DNA of 8,248 nt from IMG/VR virus record IMGVR_UViG_2671180849_000023. One strand, given 5' to 3'. Positions within the stretch are counted from its first letter, which is position 1. Each line of letters opens with the position of its first letter. The translations under genes and the position numbers were made by a program. This document shows positions 1 through 8,248 of the stretch, piece by piece. Below the pieces are notes generated by a model. That model ran no database searches. It was not told the origin of the DNA and worked only from the letters and a program-made list of their open reading frames with translations. The stretch comes from a virus (taxonomy: Duplodnaviria; Heunggongvirae; Uroviricota; Caudoviricetes).

Positions 1-324
1 ATGGAAGACGGCGTTCAGGCAATGCGCGATTATCTTGCCGGACTGGATATCGCTTCGCCAGAGCATCAGGTTCTGATGAACGTAACAGCAAAAAGCGAGG
101 TCGCTCCGTCAATTATCAAAGAAAATCTCTCATTACACTTAACCCATACGGTGAAATGGACTGAATCTCTCGATACATTTCTGAATATGCCAACCCCGGT
201 AGCTTTCCTTGAAATAAGTAATAAGCCCTATTTGGGGAATATGTTAAATGATTTTGCTGGCGTGGTTCAGCAACGAGTTATGCATTGTCGTAAAGCATTT
301 AGTGATGCAAAGGTATTCAAATAA
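1..324 (+). CDS. 3' end of an acyltransferase gene (FabD/MdcH-like malonyl-CoA:ACP transacylase fold); 5' part lies outside the window
   Basis: Open frame running from the window edge to TAA at 322..324. The C-terminal 107 aa (…VKWTESLDTFLNMPTPVAFLEISNKPYLGNMLNDF…) aligns by eye with the C-terminal region of E. coli FabD (…VQWTKSVEYMAAQGVEHLYEVGPGKVLTGLTKRI…). Family assignment is from memory, not a search. Confidence 0.45.
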   Translation: MEDGVQAMRDYLAGLDIASPEHQVLMNVTAKSEVAPSIIKENLSLHLTHTVKWTESLDTFLNMPTPVAFLEISNKPYLGNMLNDFAGVVQQRVMHCRKAFSDAKVFK

Positions 325-378: not shown

Positions 379-2196
<1,818 letters not shown>

Positions 2197-2199
2197 TCC

Positions 2200-2943
2200 A
2201 TGCATCGTATAGACACGAAAACCGCGCAGAAGGATAAGTTCGGCGCGGGTAAGAACGGTTTTACCCGTGGTAACCCCCAGACCGGCACACCTGCCACCGA
2301 TCTGGATGATGACTACTTTGACATGTTGCAGGAAGAACTCTGCAGCGTGGTGGAGGCATCCGGTGCCAGCCTGGAGAAGGGGCGGCATGACCAGCTGCTT
2401 ACCGCGCTTCGTGCGCTGCTGTTAAGCCGCAAGAATCCGTTTGGCGATATCAAATCTGATGGCACGGTGAAAACGGCTCTCGAAAACCTTGGTTTGGGAG
2501 AAGCGGCAAAACGAAATGTGGGCAACGGGGAAAACCAAATCCCTGATATGTCTTTCTGGACGGTTACTGGTGGCAATGGAAATTTTGTGATTCGTCAACC
2601 TGACGGGCTAATCATTCAGATGGTTACTGTAAGTATAAGCGGTCCAGTGGCGATGAATGGAATGACTGATAATGCTTATGCCATTACAGGTTCTAATAAG
2701 TCTTATATTGCCACAGCCACATTGCCCTTTGTATTTCCTAATAAGGTGCTGGGCGTTATCCCTCTGGTATCAACAACAGCTTATGGTGGTGTATCCAGTA
2801 ATATTACAGGTTCATACGCGACGGCGGTTTGTTCTTTTGCCGCTGTCAGGGGGAATAATACGATTGTGTTCAAAGTCGACAAACCACTGAATGCAGCCTT
2901 TCCTTCAGATACCAGCGTCTCAGCGTTAATCATTGGACGGTAA
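2200..2943 (+). CDS. Phage tail fibre protein in the currently expressed orientation (constant N-terminal domain to about 2502, then a variable C-terminal domain inside the invertible segment)
   Basis: ATG 2200 with GGAG Shine-Dalgarno 8 nt upstream. N-terminus [47 protein letters not shown] is the conserved N-terminal motif of Mu/P1/P2/e14-type tail fibres. The crossover site 2468..2503 lies in-frame, encoding …[11 protein letters not shown]…. Confidence 0.8.
2468..2503. repeat. Left inversion crossover site (pix/gix/hix-like), 36-bp perfect inverted repeat with 26-bp core at 2477..2502
   Basis: tgaaaacggctctcgaaaaccttggtttgggagaag is the exact reverse complement of 4421..4456. The 26-bp core ctctcgaaaaccttggtttgggagaa is an imperfect palindrome with central TT, resembling Hin/Gin/Pin recombination sites as I recall them. 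Confidence 0.8.
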
Positions 2944-2945
2944 GA

Positions 2946-3389
2946 ATGAACTCAGTATTCTTTTCACCCGCAAGTAAAAGTTTTTATCTGCAAGAATTGT
3001 TTCCAGAATATGAGGATGCGGGAACGCTTCCTGATGATGTTATTGAAATTACCAGAGAAACATATGAGCAATTTCTTGGGCTGCATCCAGAAGGGAAAGA
3101 AATTGGCGCTGACAGTTCAGGACGGCCAATATGGATTAATTCCCCGCCGCCTTCAAAAGAGGATGAGATGCTGGCGGCTGAAATGAAAAAGATATCTTTG
3201 GTTTCAGAAGTCAATACCTACATCAATACCCATCAGTGGCCTGGCAAAGCTGCTATTGGTCGTCTGAAAGGTTACGAGCTGGAACAATATAATTTATGGC
3301 TGGATTATCTGGACGCACTGGAACTGGTTGATACCTCCAGTGCTCCAGATATTGAATGGCCTACGCCTCCGGTAGTTCAGGCCAGATGA
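2946..3389 (+). CDS. Tail fibre assembly chaperone (Tfa) paired with the expressed fibre variant
   Basis: ATG 2946 lies 2 nt after the fibre stop, consistent with translational coupling. 147 aa, with the C-terminal motif …LDYLDALELVDTSSAPDIEWPTPP typical of Tfa proteins. Confidence 0.7.
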   Translation: MNSVFFSPASKSFYLQELFPEYEDAGTLPDDVIEITRETYEQFLGLHPEGKEIGADSSGRPIWINSPPPSKEDEMLAAEMKKISLVSEVNTYINTHQWPGKAAIGRLKGYELEQYNLWLDYLDALELVDTSSAPDIEWPTPPVVQAR

Positions 3390-3966
3390 CATCCGGCGCG
3401 GTGCTGGTATCTGTTGCAGTCACCGCGTCAATGTAATCCAGCACAGCGTTAAGCCGGGTTGTTTCTGCCTGCGTCAGCTTCCGCCCGGCCTGCAATTTCA
3501 GCTGAATCAGACTAATGGAAGCCATAGCAGCATCAATCAGTGACTGGCGCCGTACTTCTGCCGCGTCTACTGCGGCGTTATGCTGTGCCTCAGTATCGGT
3601 CACCCATTTCTCACCATCCCATTTATCGTATGACGTTAACGGGGCGATAGTGGTTGTATTTTCAGGGTAATCACCCGGAAGTGTGATTTCTTTTGATTCT
3701 CCTGTTTCGGTGCTATAGACGATTTCACCGCGATGGTCTGGCACATATTCCCATGAGTTAAAATCTGCAGAACGGCAAATTGCATAACCAGCTTTATATG
3801 AGCCAGGAGCATCTAAACAGGAACATGCCGGGATACCAACACCCACAGCAAGATATTCAGTTGATGTGGAAATATATTCCCGTGTTTCACCATCATAATT
3901 ATAAACGGTAATGTCTCCGGCCTTTGTGGCGATGAGTTCATTATTTAATACAGCTTTACTTATCAT
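3361..3966 (-). CDS. Alternative tail fibre assembly chaperone (Tfa') for the silent fibre variant
   Basis: 201 aa on the minus strand, with C-terminal …LDYIDAVTATDTSTAPDVIWPELPEA paralleling the plus-strand Tfa. Its ATG overlaps the upstream cassette stop in an ATGA arrangement. It lies inside the invertible segment. Confidence 0.75.
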   Translation of the reverse strand: MISKAVLNNELIATKAGDITVYNYDGETREYISTSTEYLAVGVGIPACSCLDAPGSYKAGYAICRSADFNSWEYVPDHRGEIVYSTETGESKEITLPGDYPENTTTIAPLTSYDKWDGEKWVTDTEAQHNAAVDAAEVRRQSLIDAAMASISLIQLKLQAGRKLTQAETTRLNAVLDYIDAVTATDTSTAPDVIWPELPEA

Positions 3967-4475
3967 GCAGCCCTCACAATATAATTAAAGGCGATGTTAC
4001 GGGAGCGGGTTTCAGATGCTGTGCGAACTGAGCGAGATGCGTCGAATGTCCAGTTATAAGCGCCATAACCCTCAATAATTGCGGCTTCCTTTAGACCTGT
4101 AGATAATACTTGCCCATGTTGACTAAATGGCCCTGAACTAAGTACGTCTCTAAAAAGCTGGGTACGCCCAAAAGAACCAACAATATTCTGAATTGCATCA
4201 TTCTGTGCAGATAATAAGTTACGACCAGAGTCAATCCCGCGCCCATCATCCCAGCCACGAATAAATTCACCGCGTAAATCTGGTAATTTTAATGTTGGGT
4301 AAGCCTTTGCCAGATTTGGGTACTTTTCAGAAGAAAATACTGCTCCGTTACATTTTAGCCACCCCGTTGGCGGAGTGGCGGAAGGCCACGGAACAGGCAC
4401 ACCAACGGGTAATGCCGAACCTTCTCCCAAACCAAGGTTTTCGAGAGCCGTTTTCAAACGAGCAAATGGCATCAT
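3963..4475 (-). CDS. Alternative tail-fibre C-terminal variable (receptor-binding) cassette, silent orientation; becomes fused to the constant N-terminus at 2200 after inversion
   Basis: The minus-strand ORF begins [18 protein letters not shown]…, so the crossover-site-encoded [11 protein letters not shown] lies at its N-terminus. The rest (153 aa) differs from the plus-strand variable domain. The ATG at 4475 lies outside the right crossover site and may be fortuitous. Confidence 0.65.
   Translation of the reverse strand: MMPFARLKTALENLGLGEGSALPVGVPVPWPSATPPTGWLKCNGAVFSSEKYPNLAKAYPTLKLPDLRGEFIRGWDDGRGIDSGRNLLSAQNDAIQNIVGSFGRTQLFRDVLSSGPFSQHGQVLSTGLKEAAIIEGYGAYNWTFDASRSVRTASETRSRNIAFNYIVRAA
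4421..4456. repeat. Right inversion crossover site, 36-bp perfect inverted repeat with 26-bp core at 4422..4447
   Basis: cttctcccaaaccaaggttttcgagagccgttttca; exact reverse complement of 2468..2503. Lies 46 bp upstream of the invertase start. Confidence 0.8.
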
Positions 4476-4501
4476 TCCTGCTTTTGTCAGGGAGATCTAC
4501 C

Positions 4502-5056
4502 ATGCTTATTGGCTATGTACGTGTGTCAACAAATGACCAGAACACAGATCTACAACGTAATGCGCTGAACTGTGCAGGATGCGAGCTGATTTTTGAAGAC
4601 AAGATAAGCGGTACAAAGTCCGAAAGGCCGGGACTGAAAAAACTGCTCAGGACATTATCGGCAGGTGACACGCTGGTGGTCTGGAAACTGGACCGGCTGG
4701 GGCGCAGTATGCGGCATCTTGTCGTGCTGGTGGAGGAGTTGCGCGAACGAGGCATCAACTTTCGTAGTCTGACGGATTCAATTGATACCAGTACCCCAAT
4801 GGGGCGCTTTTTCTTTCATGTGATGGGGGCCCTGGCTGAAATGGAACGAGAACTGATTGTTGAACGAACAAAAGCTGGACTGGAAGCTGCTCGCGCACAG
4901 GGACGAATTGGTGGACGTCGTCCCAAACTTACACCAGAACAATGGGCACAAGCCGGACGATTAATTGCATCAGGAGTTCCGCGCCAGAAAGTTGCGATTA
5001 TCTATGATGTTGGCGTATCGACTTTGTATCAGAGGTTTCCGGCAGGAGATAAATAA
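4502..5056 (+). CDS. pin: Serine DNA invertase of the Hin/Gin/Pin/Cin family
   Basis: 185 aa from ATG 4502, with GGGAG Shine-Dalgarno 7 nt upstream. MLIGYVRVSTNDQNTDLQRNAL… carries the catalytic serine motif VRVSTNDQ, and …DTLVVWKLDRLGRSMRHL…SLTDSIDTSTPMGRFFFHVMGALAEMERELIVERT…GRIGGRRPKL…VSTLYQRFP follows Hin/Pin closely. The track ORF extends upstream to 4292, but the conserved N-terminus sets the start at 4502. Confidence 0.85.
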   Translation: MLIGYVRVSTNDQNTDLQRNALNCAGCELIFEDKISGTKSERPGLKKLLRTLSAGDTLVVWKLDRLGRSMRHLVVLVEELRERGINFRSLTDSIDTSTPMGRFFFHVMGALAEMERELIVERTKAGLEAARAQGRIGGRRPKLTPEQWAQAGRLIASGVPRQKVAIIYDVGVSTLYQRFPAGDK

Positions 5057-5254: not shown

Positions 5255-5467
5255 ATGCCAAGAAAAACGCTAGAAAATTTGGTAAATGTTGCACGTCAGA
5301 CTCAGGAAATAGCGGATAAGAGAAGCCGTTTTTTCGGGTATCTTGAACAGCATGGCTTGAAGAGGAATGAGGATAGTGCTCACCTTTTTGCTATGCATTT
5401 ACGGTTGCAACACAATGAAAGAGATAATCTTGTCCATGAACTGATGTCCGGATTACATCATAAATAG
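5255..5467 (+). CDS. Hypothetical small protein (70 aa), no recognisable family
   Basis: ATG 5255 preceded by a strong Shine-Dalgarno AGGAGG (5242..5247, 7-nt spacing). AT-rich, convergent with the 114-aa/343-aa operon. Function unknown. Confidence 0.5.
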   Translation: MPRKTLENLVNVARQTQEIADKRSRFFGYLEQHGLKRNEDSAHLFAMHLRLQHNERDNLVHELMSGLHHK

Positions 5468-5501: not shown

Positions 5502-5524
5502 AACCAGCCAAAAACTGGCTGGTT
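5502..5524. terminator. Possible bidirectional hairpin terminator between convergent genes
   Basis: Stem CCAGCC (5504..5509), loop aaaaact, stem GGCTGG (5517..5522). On the minus strand it is followed by a T-rich run (TTTATTGTCTTAT); the plus-strand U-tract is weak. Confidence 0.35.
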
Positions 5525-5551: not shown

Positions 5552-5896
5552 TTAACTTTGGTGTATGTCTTGGTAAGTCTCATCCGTCAGAGCCAATTTC
5601 ATGCAAATATCATCGTTAAGACTGACAATATCTTCGATCAGTTTATTGATCTCGAAATCGTTAAGTTTTGATACTGTTGCTTGAACTCGCCCCTCATCGC
5701 CAGTGGCATCAAACTTAGTCAGTTCCTTACATAATTCATCGAACCTGCTTTGTAAGGCATTTGGAATATCATCGGCTGTTTTAAGATGCCCAAGGCTAAA
5801 AACATACGAATTAATCAAGCGTTCTTGAATACTTCCATGGCCCGCAAGAGTAAGTACTGCAGTATGAAATTTTTCATGTGCATACTTTAAGGACAT
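5552..5896 (-). CDS. Hypothetical protein (114 aa), second gene of the cargo operon, no recognisable family
   Basis: ATG 5896 with GGAG Shine-Dalgarno at 5904..5907 (7-nt spacing), 51 nt downstream of the 343-aa gene on the same strand. AT-rich. No motif I can assign. Confidence 0.6.
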   Translation of the reverse strand: MSLKYAHEKFHTAVLTLAGHGSIQERLINSYVFSLGHLKTADDIPNALQSRFDELCKELTKFDATGDEGRVQATVSKLNDFEINKLIEDIVSLNDDICMKLALTDETYQDIHQS

Positions 5897-5947: not shown

Positions 5948-6979
5948 TTATTCTGAAACAATAGTGTTGAACTGACCTATAGAAACAGCACCCTTTTCAA
6001 TTACCTCTAAGTAACTGATTTTAATATGAGAGTTGTTTGACAAAGCGTCAACAATAGCTGTCAACTCATCTTGGGTGATAACATCAGCTGAAGCTTTGAT
6101 TGTGAAGCATTCGTCATTAGAGACCCTAACAACGTTAATATTAATATCCTGATTTGTTGGCCCTGTTCTGGTTACACCTTTGATGGAAAATATATCAGTT
6201 CGTTCTTTACGTTCTCTATCTACAGATTGTCGGCTGTTGTAGGTATTTAGGTCTTGTCGTGTTAGTTTCTCATTTCCTAAAGTCACGGTTTCGACAGTAG
6301 GATCAGCAGCTAATTGCTTCACTAAAGCACTTTTACCTGCTTGTCCGTGACTAGTAACTTTATCGCTAATCGCTGATTTCCCATAGATTTTATAATCTAA
6401 TGTTGCTTCTATGGCTTTGTTTATGCCATCGGATGTGGTTTTTGCAATTTCAACCTGCCGATCAGTTGCATGTCTTTCTGTTACGGCATTTTCTGAAATG
6501 TAGTGATAACCACATGTGCTGGCCGCGCCAACCATTGTGATTATAACAAGCATTTTCTGCCAGCCGTTCAGTCCAGACATAGTATCTCGCAAAAAATCAG
6601 TTACTGCGTTGATGATCTTGTCAGTGGTGCCTTCCGCATCACTAGAACCTTCGCTAATTTTAAAATTTATATCAAGTCGTTGCTTGTCTTCATTAGTCAA
6701 GCGTTGAAGATTCTGCGATCCGTATCGTATGGTTGCAAACGCCCGCTGTATCTCCTCGTTGAGCATTGACATACCAAACAACATTGCTGATGTAATTGAT
6801 GAATGATACCGCTCTCCTTTTACATTTATGTCTAAGGATGGCCAGCCTGCAAACTTTACGTTAGGGAAAATAAACTCTTTAGAATCAAGCCCCTCTCGGG
6901 CTTTCATTTCTTCCAGAAAGTTTAGAAAATCATCTTCACTACGGATCAGAAAATCAATCGAATCCACAGTAGCTTCCAT
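5948..6979 (-). CDS. Hypothetical protein (343 aa), first gene of the cargo operon, with one hydrophobic segment (aa 143..161); no recognisable family
   Basis: ATG 6979 with AAGGA Shine-Dalgarno 7 nt upstream; a long uninterrupted ORF. GC counted at 20/60 in each of 5941..6000 and 6001..6060, against 38/60 in smpB (7981..8040). Confidence 0.7.
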   Translation of the reverse strand: MEATVDSIDFLIRSEDDFLNFLEEMKAREGLDSKEFIFPNVKFAGWPSLDINVKGERYHSSITSAMLFGMSMLNEEIQRAFATIRYGSQNLQRLTNEDKQRLDINFKISEGSSDAEGTTDKIINAVTDFLRDTMSGLNGWQKMLVIITMVGAASTCGYHYISENAVTERHATDRQVEIAKTTSDGINKAIEATLDYKIYGKSAISDKVTSHGQAGKSALVKQLAADPTVETVTLGNEKLTRQDLNTYNSRQSVDRERKERTDIFSIKGVTRTGPTNQDININVVRVSNDECFTIKASADVITQDELTAIVDALSNNSHIKISYLEVIEKGAVSIGQFNTIVSE

Positions 6980-7034
6980 ATGAATATCCTTATTAAATTC
7001 TCATTCGGTTACTGTTTATTGTTGACTGATCAAT

Positions 7035-7063
7035 AAAAAAGCCCGCAATTTGCGGGCTTCTTT
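7035..7063 (-). terminator. Rho-independent terminator downstream of ssrA (minus-strand orientation)
   Basis: Stem GCCCGCA (7041..7047), loop att, stem TGCGGGC (7051..7057). On the minus strand the hairpin is followed by TTTTTTATTG; on the plus strand by the weaker TTCTTTC. Confidence 0.55.
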
Positions 7064-7188: not shown

Positions 7189-7551
7189 TGGTGGAGCTGG
7201 CGGGAGTTGAACCCGCGTCCGAAATTCCTACATCCTCGGTACTACATGCTTAGTCAGTCTTTACATTCGCTTGCCAGCTGCGGACGGACACGCCACTAAC
7301 AAACTAGCCTGATTAAGTTTTAACGCTTCAACCCCAGGCAGGGCTTCCACGCGATCTCTTTTGGGTTTGACCTCTCTTGATCCCCGTCCTAAGAGCGGAG
7401 GCTAGGGAGAGAGGGCTCTAAGCAGGTTATTAAGCTGCTAAAGCGTAGTTTTCGTCGTTTGCGACTATTTTTTGCGGCTTTTTACGAGGCCAACCGCCCC
7501 TCGGCATGCACCTTGGGTTTCGCAAATCCCGTCGAATCCAGAATCAGCCCC
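7189..7551 (-). ncRNA. ssrA: tmRNA (transfer-messenger RNA, 10Sa RNA), 363 nt
   Basis: Reverse complement begins GGGGCTGATTCTGGATTCGACGGG and ends …GGGTTCAACTCCCGCCAGCTCCACCA (tRNA-like acceptor/T-arm with encoded CCA). The internal tag reading frame is at 7430..7462. Confidence 0.95.
7430..7462 (-). other. tmRNA tag-peptide reading frame (resume codon GCA through stop): ANDENYALAA*
   Basis: Minus-strand codons GCA AAC GAC GAA AAC TAC GCT TTA GCA GCT TAA, read directly from the sequence. This is the proteolysis tag of E. coli and close relatives. Confidence 0.9.
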
Positions 7552-7765: not shown

Positions 7766-8248
7766 TTAACGGTGGGCGTTTTTCATGATACGTGCTTTAT
7801 CCACCTGCCATTCGCGTTCTTTGATATCTGAACGTTTATCGTGCTGTTTTTTACCTTTGGCGACGCCGATTTTCACTTTGCACCAGGCATTTTTCCAGTA
7901 CAGGGAGAGCGCCACTACGGTATAGCCTTCTCGATTGACGCGACCGTACAATGAGTCCAGTTCGCGCTGGTTGAGAAGTAACTTGCGGGTACGGGTAGGA
8001 TCGCACACCACATGCGTGGAGGCCACGGCCATTGGCGTGATGTTAGCGCCAAACAGAAATGCCTCTCCGTCACGCAGAAGGACGTAGCTGTCGCTGATAT
8101 TGGCTTTTCCTGCGCGCAGGGATTTAACCTCCCAGCCTTGCAGGGCAAGTCCCGCTTCGAACTCTTCTTCGATAAAGTATTCGTGACGGGCGCGCTTGTT
8201 AAGCGCGATGGTCGCTGAACCAGGTTTATGTGCTTTTTTCTTCGTCAT
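7766..8248 (-). CDS. smpB: SsrA-binding protein SmpB (160 aa, complete)
   Basis: ATG at the window edge (8248..8246), stop at 7766. [56 protein letters not shown]… is the canonical SmpB sequence, upstream of and co-oriented with ssrA as in E. coli. Confidence 0.95.

What the first reader, a model, noticed from the sequence alone, without database searches (positions are those of the whole stretch)
6497..6553. Single hydrophobic segment in the 343-aa protein suggests a membrane-anchored effector
Residues 143..161 (MLVIITMVGAASTCGYHYI) form the only long hydrophobic stretch in an otherwise charged, polar protein, flanked by K before and E after. A single transmembrane or membrane-inserting helix in a cargo protein is typical of abortive-infection or superinfection-exclusion effectors that act on the membrane. 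If real, it narrows the mechanism.
Basis: inference. Interest (0 to 1): 0.4.

Follow-up and report, generated by a model that had tools for sequence, protein, structure and literature searches.

The report
Probable membrane anchor in prophage cargo protein
The hydrophobic stretch is real and is kept in hundreds of related prophage proteins, so it is most likely a single membrane-spanning anchor in an uncharacterised protein that prophages make alongside their repressor, probably to keep other phages out; neither the membrane location nor that role has been tested.

Summary
In this copy alone it is borderline. Its 19-residue Kyte-Doolittle (KD) mean is 1.41, below the usual 1.6 cut-off, and shuffles of the same protein reach that value 45% of the time. 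The family settles it. In 132 of 133 distant relatives the most hydrophobic window sits at the same place (median 1.73; next peak 0.84). The residues themselves vary, and there are no invariant or ≥90%-conserved columns between Q141 and G200. This fits a lipid-facing transmembrane helix better than a conserved protein core. The modelled layout is an N-terminal domain with no recognisable fold, the hydrophobic helix, a variable helical stalk and a C-terminal OB-fold. No Pfam, NCBIfam, PADLOC or PDB relative was found; only PHROG 6191 (function unknown). Relatives always occur as solitary prophage cargo. They often lie directly after the cI repressor with a terminator behind them, which is lambda's rexAB slot, or next to attachment sites. 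Best reading: a bitopic inner-membrane protein, N terminus inside, made in lysogens and probably excluding other phages. Nothing shows that the helix itself is the effector. Interest is moderate.

The parts
5948..6979 (-). CDS of the 343-aa protein (RefSeq WP_021530618.1, 'hypothetical protein'); member of PHROG 6191
   Evidence: ORF list; RefSeq annotation of the identical locus; PHROG 6191 E=6.8e-38 over residues 7-340; 76 close homologues and 846 cluster representatives.
6987..6991 (-). Shine-Dalgarno-like AAGGA, 7 nt upstream of the ATG
   Evidence: Read directly from the sequence: the minus strand reads ...TAATAAGGATATTCATATG.
6575..6979 (-). N-terminal domain, residues 1-135. It is the best-conserved part of the protein (motifs F-x-GWP-x-L-x-INVKG and L-D-x-x-F-x-I-x-EGSSD). 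It has no signal peptide, so it is inferred to be cytoplasmic.
6497..6553 (-). Hydrophobic segment, residues 143-161 (the finding): probable single transmembrane helix. The charge-free run is 143-162.
   Evidence: AF2 models a helix at 139-153, a break at S154/T155 and a weaker helix at 156-164.
6290..6496 (-). Variable polar linker and two long helices (residues 162-230), a 'stalk'. It is the least conserved part and varies in length across the family.
   Evidence: pLDDT below 50 for 155-191 and helices at 176-200 and 203-225; highest column entropy at 161-200; Q/E/K-rich stalks of different lengths in distant members.
5960..6214 (-). C-terminal OB-fold domain, residues 256-340 (beta1-3, helix, beta4-5)
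5552..5896 (-). Downstream 114-aa ORF on the same strand, 51 bp after the stop. It is probably co-transcribed in this lineage but is not a conserved partner.
   Evidence: ORF list; present with the 343-aa gene in the same number of E. coli complete genomes, 46 of 5426; absent from all other loci carrying a homologue; no family hit.
5502..5524 (-). Intrinsic-terminator-like hairpin that closes the two-gene unit
   Evidence: Terminator scan: 10-bp stem with 5 G-C pairs.

Best explanation
The 343-aa protein is a bitopic inner-membrane protein encoded by prophage cargo ('moron') DNA. Residues about 143-161 form one transmembrane helix that works as an internal signal-anchor. The conserved N-terminal domain (1-135) stays in the cytoplasm. 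A variable helical stalk (162-230) and a C-terminal OB-fold domain (256-340) lie in the periplasm.

The gene works alone and is expressed from the resident prophage. In many relatives it is the second gene of the cI repressor operon. Its most likely job is to protect the lysogen against other phages at the cell envelope, that is, superinfection exclusion or injection-stage defence. In this reading the helix is the anchor and connector between the two conserved domains, not the toxic element.

Shown:
- the segment, its family-wide conservation of position and hydrophobic character;
- the domain layout in AF2 models;
- the solitary prophage contexts and the cI-gene-terminator arrangement.

Inferred:
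- actual membrane insertion;
- the N-in/C-out orientation;
- the anti-phage role and the step at which it acts.
For: (1) Hydrophobic character is conserved while sequence is not.
- The family-averaged KD19 is 1.81 at residue 143 against 0.65 for the next peak.
- In 132 of 133 distant representatives the top window is in the same place, with a median of 1.73, and 69% reach 1.6.
- My GES trapezoid score is at least 1.0 in 98.5% of 201 family members (scale and cut-off recalled from memory).
- No invariant or ≥90%-conserved column lies between Q141 and G200. The TM and linker blocks have the highest entropy.
- The charge-free run varies from 15 to 26 residues, and 4-residue deletions occur at the end of the segment. 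That is poor behaviour for a packed core helix.

(2) The helix is uniformly apolar (muH 0.19-0.23). The preceding helix 120-133 is amphipathic (muH 0.70).

(3) AF2 gives helix 139-153 followed by 155-191 at pLDDT below 50, two long helices and a confident OB-fold.

(4) Orientation. The N terminus is acidic with no signal peptide. Among close homologues the N-flank carries more K+R than the C-flank in 85% (2.44 against 1.61; net charge +1.4 against -1.3).

(5) Context.
- The gene lies directly downstream of cI on the same strand and before N in phages phi458 and PhiR12, and in Yersinia and Pantoea prophages.
- 17 of 40 IMG/VR loci have a cI directly upstream, across several cI types.
- There is no terminator between cI and the gene, and a strong one lies right after it.
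- This is the rexAB/bstA hotspot (PMC8585504).
- Other slots are between the icd att site and int, a tail-module moron between chaperone and tape measure, a lambdoid prophage edge, and here between Pin and the ssrA att site.

(6) No conserved partner gene was found.
Against: - The window's own copy is borderline: KD19 1.41 is below 1.6, the Eisenberg mean H of 0.58 is below the 0.68 'initiator' level, and the crude Hessa sum is +3.7 kcal/mol. The value is not unusual against shuffles (P=0.45) and only just exceeds soluble SmpB at 1.34.
- AF2 breaks the helix at S154/T155.
- The positive-inside bias disappears in distant relatives (K+R 2.31 on the N side against 2.97 on the C side).
- OB-folds are as common in cytoplasmic nucleic-acid binders as in periplasmic proteins.
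- No member of the family has any experimental phenotype. PADLOC has no model for it, and no paper mentions the accession.
- The defence role rests on genomic position only.
Confidence: 0.5

Rival explanations
1. Abortive-infection effector. The hydrophobic helix is itself the killing device. On sensing infection, through the N-domain or the OB-fold, the protein oligomerises or inserts and depolarises the inner membrane. This would be a one-protein functional analogue of RexA/RexB.
For: It occupies the same genomic slot as rexAB. There is one uniformly apolar helix with small residues (G/A/S/T) along one face, which could mediate helix-helix packing. Marginal hydrophobicity in this clade would suit conditional rather than constitutive insertion. 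The OB-fold could be a nucleic-acid sensor.
Against: A single helix of about 19 residues is a poor pore former unless it forms higher oligomers, and no oligomer evidence is available. The helix is the least conserved element, while both flanking domains are conserved; that is more typical of an anchor. There is no homology to RexB or any PADLOC model.
Confidence: 0.15
2. Soluble protein. Residues 139-161 are a buried helix of the N-terminal domain or of an oligomer interface, and the protein never enters the membrane. The OB-fold binds nucleic acid in the cytoplasm.
Against: Across relatives of under 50% identity the segment keeps a charge-free run of median 19 residues and a KD19 of about 1.7-2.2 with no conserved residue. 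It also tolerates length changes of 15-26 residues. Buried core helices are normally among the best-conserved positions. The helix is not amphipathic. It lies at the edge of the domain, directly before a disordered, variable linker.
Confidence: 0.17
3. A genuine bitopic membrane protein whose benefit to the lysogen is not phage exclusion. It would be another lysogenic-conversion function, for example envelope stress, metal or sugar binding in the periplasm, or a colonisation or virulence trait.
Against: The most frequent slot, downstream of cI, is best known for exclusion and abortive-infection genes. CusF-type metal ligands were not examined, and identity to SilF is only 13%.
Confidence: 0.15

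Closest known systems
Lambda RexA/RexB (abortive infection, cI-rexA-rexB operon)
   Same: Same genomic slot and the same logic of expression. Relatives lie directly after cI, on the same strand, before N, with a terminator behind them (PMC8585504). A membrane component is involved in both.
   Different: This is one gene, not two, with one hydrophobic segment instead of RexB's four TM helices (RexB topology is established knowledge). There is no sequence relationship and no PADLOC hit. Here two conserved soluble domains flank the helix.
HK97 gp15, P22 SieA and T4 Imm: small prophage or phage inner-membrane proteins that block genome entry
   Same: All are solitary, lysogen-expressed membrane proteins. 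One relative sits as a moron between the tail chaperone and the tape measure gene, which is where HK97 gene 15 lies (my recollection; PMC3594210 was listed but not read). Genome-entry exclusion is the mechanism I consider most likely here.
   Different: This protein is much larger (343 aa). Its TM lies in the middle, between a conserved 135-aa cytoplasmic domain and a stalk plus OB-fold. No homology was detected; PHROGs gives only family 6191, of unknown function. I did not have the gp15, SieA or Imm sequences to compare directly.
SNIPE / PD-lambda-1 (membrane-anchored GIY-YIG nuclease that cuts injected phage DNA)
   Same: A single-gene, single-pass membrane-anchored defence protein with an elongated helical region and a putative nucleic-acid-binding module. 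The anchor positions the protein at the site of genome injection (PMC13190303).
   Different: SNIPE has an N-terminal TM with a periplasmic N terminus, a DUF4041 domain and a GIY-YIG domain in the cytoplasm. Here there is no Pfam or PADLOC hit, the TM is central, and no nuclease motif was recognised.
GspM/PilO-type bitopic proteins (basis of the GenBank label 'T2SS GspM containing protein' on the PhiR12 homologue)
   Same: Overall layout of a short hydrophobic anchor, then a helical region, then a small globular C-terminal domain.
RseA/ToxR/CadC-type bitopic proteins with an internal signal-anchor
   Same: Topology class: a cytoplasmic N-terminal domain of 100-180 aa, one TM helix and a periplasmic C-terminal domain (established knowledge). 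They show that this layout inserts without a signal peptide.
   Different: No sequence or fold relationship. Those proteins are host regulators, not phage cargo.

Membership tests
PHROG 6191 (phage protein family of unknown function) | Full-length match to the family profile | tested here: met
   E=6.8e-38, 131.6 bits, residues 7-340 on profile positions 5-331 of 338.
Bitopic (single-pass) inner-membrane protein | One uncharged apolar stretch long enough to span the bilayer (about 18-23 residues) | tested here: met
   Charge-free run 143-162, 20 residues. Family median is 18-19.
Bitopic (single-pass) inner-membrane protein | Hydrophobicity above accepted cut-offs (KD 19-residue mean of at least 1.6) | tested here: inconclusive
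   The window copy scores 1.41, so the cut-off is not met. The family average is 1.81 and the median of distant members is 1.73, so it is met there. Local calibration: soluble proteins reach at most 1.34 and membrane proteins at least 1.7.
Bitopic (single-pass) inner-membrane protein | Call by a dedicated topology predictor (DeepTMHMM, TOPCONS or Phobius) | not testable with these tools
   No such predictor is available. Only hand-coded scales were used.
Bitopic (single-pass) inner-membrane protein | Positive-inside charge bias that defines an orientation | tested here: inconclusive
   Close homologues: N-flank K+R 2.44 against 1.61 on the C-flank, with N greater than C in 85%. Distant members: 2.31 against 2.97, so no bias.
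Bitopic (single-pass) inner-membrane protein | Experimental membrane localisation and topology | not testable with these tools
   Needs fractionation and PhoA/LacZ-alpha or GFP fusions.
OB-fold (structural superfamily) for residues 256-340 | Five-stranded closed beta-barrel with a helix between strands 3 and 4; significant structural matches | tested here: met
Lambda RexAB | Two-gene system with a multi-pass RexB and sequence homology | tested here: not met
   Single gene with one hydrophobic segment, and no PADLOC, Pfam or PHROG Rex hit. Only the genomic slot is shared.
SNIPE / PD-lambda-1 | N-terminal TM + DUF4041 + GIY-YIG nuclease domain | tested here: not met
   No Pfam hit at E<=1 and no PADLOC hit. 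The TM is central, not N-terminal.
T2SS GspM / PilO family | Match to Pfam T2SSM and a ferredoxin-like periplasmic domain | tested here: not met
Prophage-encoded anti-phage (exclusion or abortive-infection) gene | Located in recognised prophage cargo or defence slots and expressed in the lysogen | tested here: met
   Location: cI-downstream slot with the gene followed by a terminator, att-adjacent slots and a tail-moron slot. Expression was not measured.
Prophage-encoded anti-phage (exclusion or abortive-infection) gene | Demonstrated protection against at least one phage | not testable with these tools
   No experimental report was found.

The most novel reading that the evidence does not exclude
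The family is a new type of trans-envelope anti-phage protein. A periplasmic OB-fold on a helical stalk detects or binds a component of an incoming phage's genome-delivery apparatus (or the DNA itself). Through a single TM helix it is coupled to a conserved cytoplasmic domain of previously unseen fold, which carries out or signals the block. It would be a one-gene occupant of the lambda rexAB slot with no relationship to any described defence system.
Probability: 0.25. Interest if true: 0.65.

Novelty: new variant of a known kind. Interest (0 to 1): 0.42.

Why it matters
If the helix is a true anchor, it fixes the geometry of a widespread, entirely uncharacterised prophage protein family. The family has 846 clusters at 50% identity and occupies the repressor-operon slot in many lambdoid phages. 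The geometry would be a conserved domain on each side of the inner membrane. That narrows the mechanism to events at the envelope, namely genome entry or trans-membrane signalling, and gives an immediately testable candidate for a new single-gene exclusion or defence system in the classical rexAB position. If the helix is instead buried, the protein is a soluble OB-fold protein and the envelope hypotheses fall away.

Tried and rejected
- Pfam, NCBIfam and PADLOC scans of the 343-aa protein and its two small neighbours gave nothing significant.
- A profile search of all PDB sequences gave only chance-level hits, E at least 0.22.
- The AFDB Foldseek library was not installed.
- A BFVD fold search found only uncharacterised phage proteins and generic OB-fold matches.
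- The GenBank label 'T2SS GspM containing protein' on the PhiR12 homologue could not be reproduced.
- The 343-aa ORF 1.1 kb downstream in the Cronobacter loci was tested as a possible paralogue. It is unrelated.
- The 114-aa and 70-aa neighbours were tested as conserved partners. They are absent from every other locus, although the 114-aa ORF occurs in the same number of E. coli complete genomes (46 of 5426) as the gene (the 70-aa ORF lies within the 2-kb stretch found whole in 46 genomes).
- Literature searches for the accessions, phi458 Orf11 and PhiR12 found no functional data.
- The single-sequence shuffle test showed that the segment alone is not statistically remarkable. The case therefore rests on the family.

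Full report
**Where we are.** The window is E. coli chromosome. smpB (7766-8248, minus) and the tmRNA gene ssrA (7189-7551, minus) lie at the right end. To the left is a decayed mosaic prophage: an IS3-family transposase pair, a Mu gp48-like baseplate fragment, two tail-fibre/assembly-protein pairs in an invertible arrangement, and a Pin-type serine invertase. Between the invertase and ssrA lie three low-GC (about 37-42%) ORFs with no annotation: 70 aa (plus strand), 114 aa and 343 aa (both minus strand). The 2-kb stretch holding these three ORFs is found whole in 46 of 5426 complete E. coli genomes. The 343-aa and 114-aa genes, searched separately, are each in 46 genomes at 99% identity or more.

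**The observation.** The 343-aa ORF runs 5948-6979 on the minus strand, with an AAGGA seven bases before its ATG. Residues 143-161, MLVIITMVGAASTCGYHYI, map exactly to 6553-6497.
- It is the top Kyte-Doolittle (KD) window (19-residue mean 1.41; next separate peak 0.71) and the longest charge-free run (143-162).
- K142 precedes it. The acidic residue after it is E163, following S162.
- Taken alone the segment is unimpressive. It is below the classical 1.6 cut-off, and a crude Hessa sum is +3.7 kcal/mol. 45% of shuffles of the same protein do as well.
- It sits between soluble neighbours (up to 1.34 for SmpB) and membrane proteins (1.7-2.5) of the same genome.

**The family.** No Pfam, NCBIfam or PADLOC model matches. 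PHROG 6191, of unknown function, matches end to end. A word-indexed search found 76 homologues, all of the named ones in Enterobacterales. A profile search of 1.84 billion cluster representatives found 846 at E<=1e-3 and 506 at E<=1e-10, most of those listed being 310-380 aa long.
- In 132 of 133 representatives of at least 290 aa, the most hydrophobic 19-residue window falls in the same place (5th-95th percentile 124-141). The median is 1.73 against 0.84 for the second peak.
- The family-averaged profile of the close set peaks at 1.81 exactly at residue 143, with the next peak at 0.65.
- The residues themselves are free to change. No invariant or ≥90%-conserved column lies between Q141 and G200.
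- The segment and the linker behind it have the highest column entropy of the protein.
- The charge-free run varies from 15 to 26 residues, and 4-residue deletions occur at its end.
- The helix is not amphipathic (muH 0.19-0.23), whereas the helix just before it is (0.70).

This combination is what a lipid-facing anchor looks like. It is not what a packed core helix looks like.

**Structure models.** The full-length AF2 model has a mean pLDDT of 68. It gives:
- an alpha/beta N-domain (1-135);
- helix 139-153;
- a stretch at pLDDT below 50 (155-191);
- two long helices (176-200 and 203-225);
- a confident C-terminal OB-fold (256-340, pLDDT about 83-94).

This last point cuts both ways. The N-domain appears novel, but the bundle-type hits suggest that the model may fold the apolar helix back on the domain. 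AF2 does not model a membrane, which could explain this.

**Orientation.** The N terminus is acidic and has no signal peptide. If the helix spans the membrane, N-in/C-out is therefore by far the more plausible orientation. RseA, ToxR and CadC show that this layout exists (established knowledge). Close homologues obey the positive-inside rule in that sense (K+R 2.44 against 1.61, with N greater than C in 85%). Distant ones show no bias (2.31 against 2.97). The stalk behind the helix is Q/E/K-rich and variable in length in distant members. This is reminiscent of periplasm-spanning stalks, but it proves nothing.

**Context.** The gene is always solitary cargo, in at least five different slots:
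- directly after the cI repressor, on the same strand and before N, in phages phi458 and PhiR12 and in Yersinia and Pantoea prophages;
- between the icd attachment site and the integrase in Lelliottia and Serratia;
- between the tail chaperone and the tape measure gene in Klebsiella siphophage-like prophages;
- at a lambdoid prophage edge in Enterobacter and at island edges in Cronobacter;
- here, between Pin and ssrA, a position reminiscent (from memory) of mcrA in the e14 element.

In IMG/VR, 17 of 40 loci have a cI-like gene ending just upstream of it, across several cI types. These include relatives 66-72% identical to the window protein. Another five have an integrase immediately downstream. 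In phi458 and the Yersinia prophage there is no terminator between cI and the gene, and a strong one lies 9-10 bp after its stop. The gene should therefore be made in lysogens together with the repressor, as lambda rexAB is. That region is a recognised hotspot for exclusion and abortive-infection genes, including rexAB and bstA (PMC8585504). The 114-aa and 70-aa neighbours are absent from all other loci, so they are not obligatory partners.

**Mechanism.** My best reading (confidence about 0.5 for the whole statement; about 0.75 for 'spans or inserts into the membrane') is a bitopic inner-membrane protein. It would have a conserved cytoplasmic domain and a periplasmic stalk plus OB-fold, be expressed from the prophage, and most likely exclude other phages at the envelope. 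The helix would be the anchor and connector rather than the effector, because the two flanking domains carry the conservation.

The rivals are:
- a Rex-like abortive-infection device in which the helix depolarises the membrane (0.15);
- a soluble protein with a buried helix (0.17);
- a membrane protein with a lysogenic-conversion role other than defence (0.15).

**Comparison with known systems.** The protein works in the niche of RexAB, HK97 gp15, P22 SieA and SNIPE (PMC13190303), but it is not a member of any of them. There is no homology, the number and placement of TM helices differ, and no nuclease or other known domain is present. The GenBank label 'T2SS GspM containing protein' on the PhiR12 homologue is not reproducible. 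It is best described as a new variant, with an unrelated architecture, of a known kind: prophage-encoded, membrane-anchored, single-gene cargo in exclusion slots. No function has been shown experimentally for any member.

Noticed in passing
window 387-1600 (minus strand): An IS3-family insertion sequence: OrfA (HTH_Tnp_1) at 1253-1600 and OrfB (rve integrase core) at 387-1133, in different frames as expected for programmed frameshifting. It abuts and apparently truncates a Mu gp48-like baseplate gene (ORF 1585-2196).
   Followed up: partly
window 2200-5056: A complete-looking invertible tail-fibre switch. Two tail-fibre C-terminal ends (2200-2943 plus strand; 3963-4475 minus strand, Collar domain) and two Caudo_TAP assembly genes (2946-3389 plus; 3361-3966 minus) face each other next to a Pin/Gin-type serine invertase (Resolvase + HTH_7, within 4292-5056). 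The inverted-repeat crossover sites were not looked for.
   Followed up: partly
window 1-324 (plus strand): A 107-aa ORF running from the window's left edge, in a region of about 40% GC, with no Pfam hit. It lies beyond the IS element, so the island continues to the left with unrelated cargo. In strain FDAARGOS_1287, the region to the left of the shared Pin/tail-fibre segment carries P2-like tail genes rather than the window's IS3 element, so the island is mosaic between strains.
   Followed up: no
window 5255-5467 (plus) and 5552-5896 (minus): Two small orphan ORFs (70 and 114 aa) lie between the invertase and the 343-aa gene. The 114-aa ORF is in 46 of 5426 complete E. coli genomes, the same count as the 343-aa gene, and the 70-aa ORF lies in the 2-kb stretch found whole in 46 genomes. 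Neither has a family hit, and both are absent next to homologues in other genera. The 114-aa ORF shares a terminator (5502-5524) with the 343-aa gene, so it may be a lineage-specific accessory.
   Followed up: partly
window 7034-7058 (minus strand): A perfect 8-bp hairpin (AGCCCGCA-AAT-TGCGGGCT) followed by a run of six T then ATT, downstream of ssrA on the minus strand. It looks like the ssrA terminator, but the terminator scan did not list it. The 343-aa gene starts only 55 bp beyond it, and no consensus promoter was found in between.
   Followed up: no
L008-L010, 10157-11188: In Cronobacter, a second unannotated ORF of 343 aa lies 1.1 kb downstream of the 82%-identical homologue. Despite the identical length it is unrelated in sequence. 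It is followed by a DUF7079 gene, which suggests a small island of unknown cargo.
   Followed up: partly
L005-L007, 8001-9050: In Klebsiella prophages the homologue is inserted between the tail assembly chaperone (DUF6246) and the tape measure gene, together with a 157-aa gene on the opposite strand. The position resembles that of the HK97 gene 15 exclusion moron.
   Followed up: no
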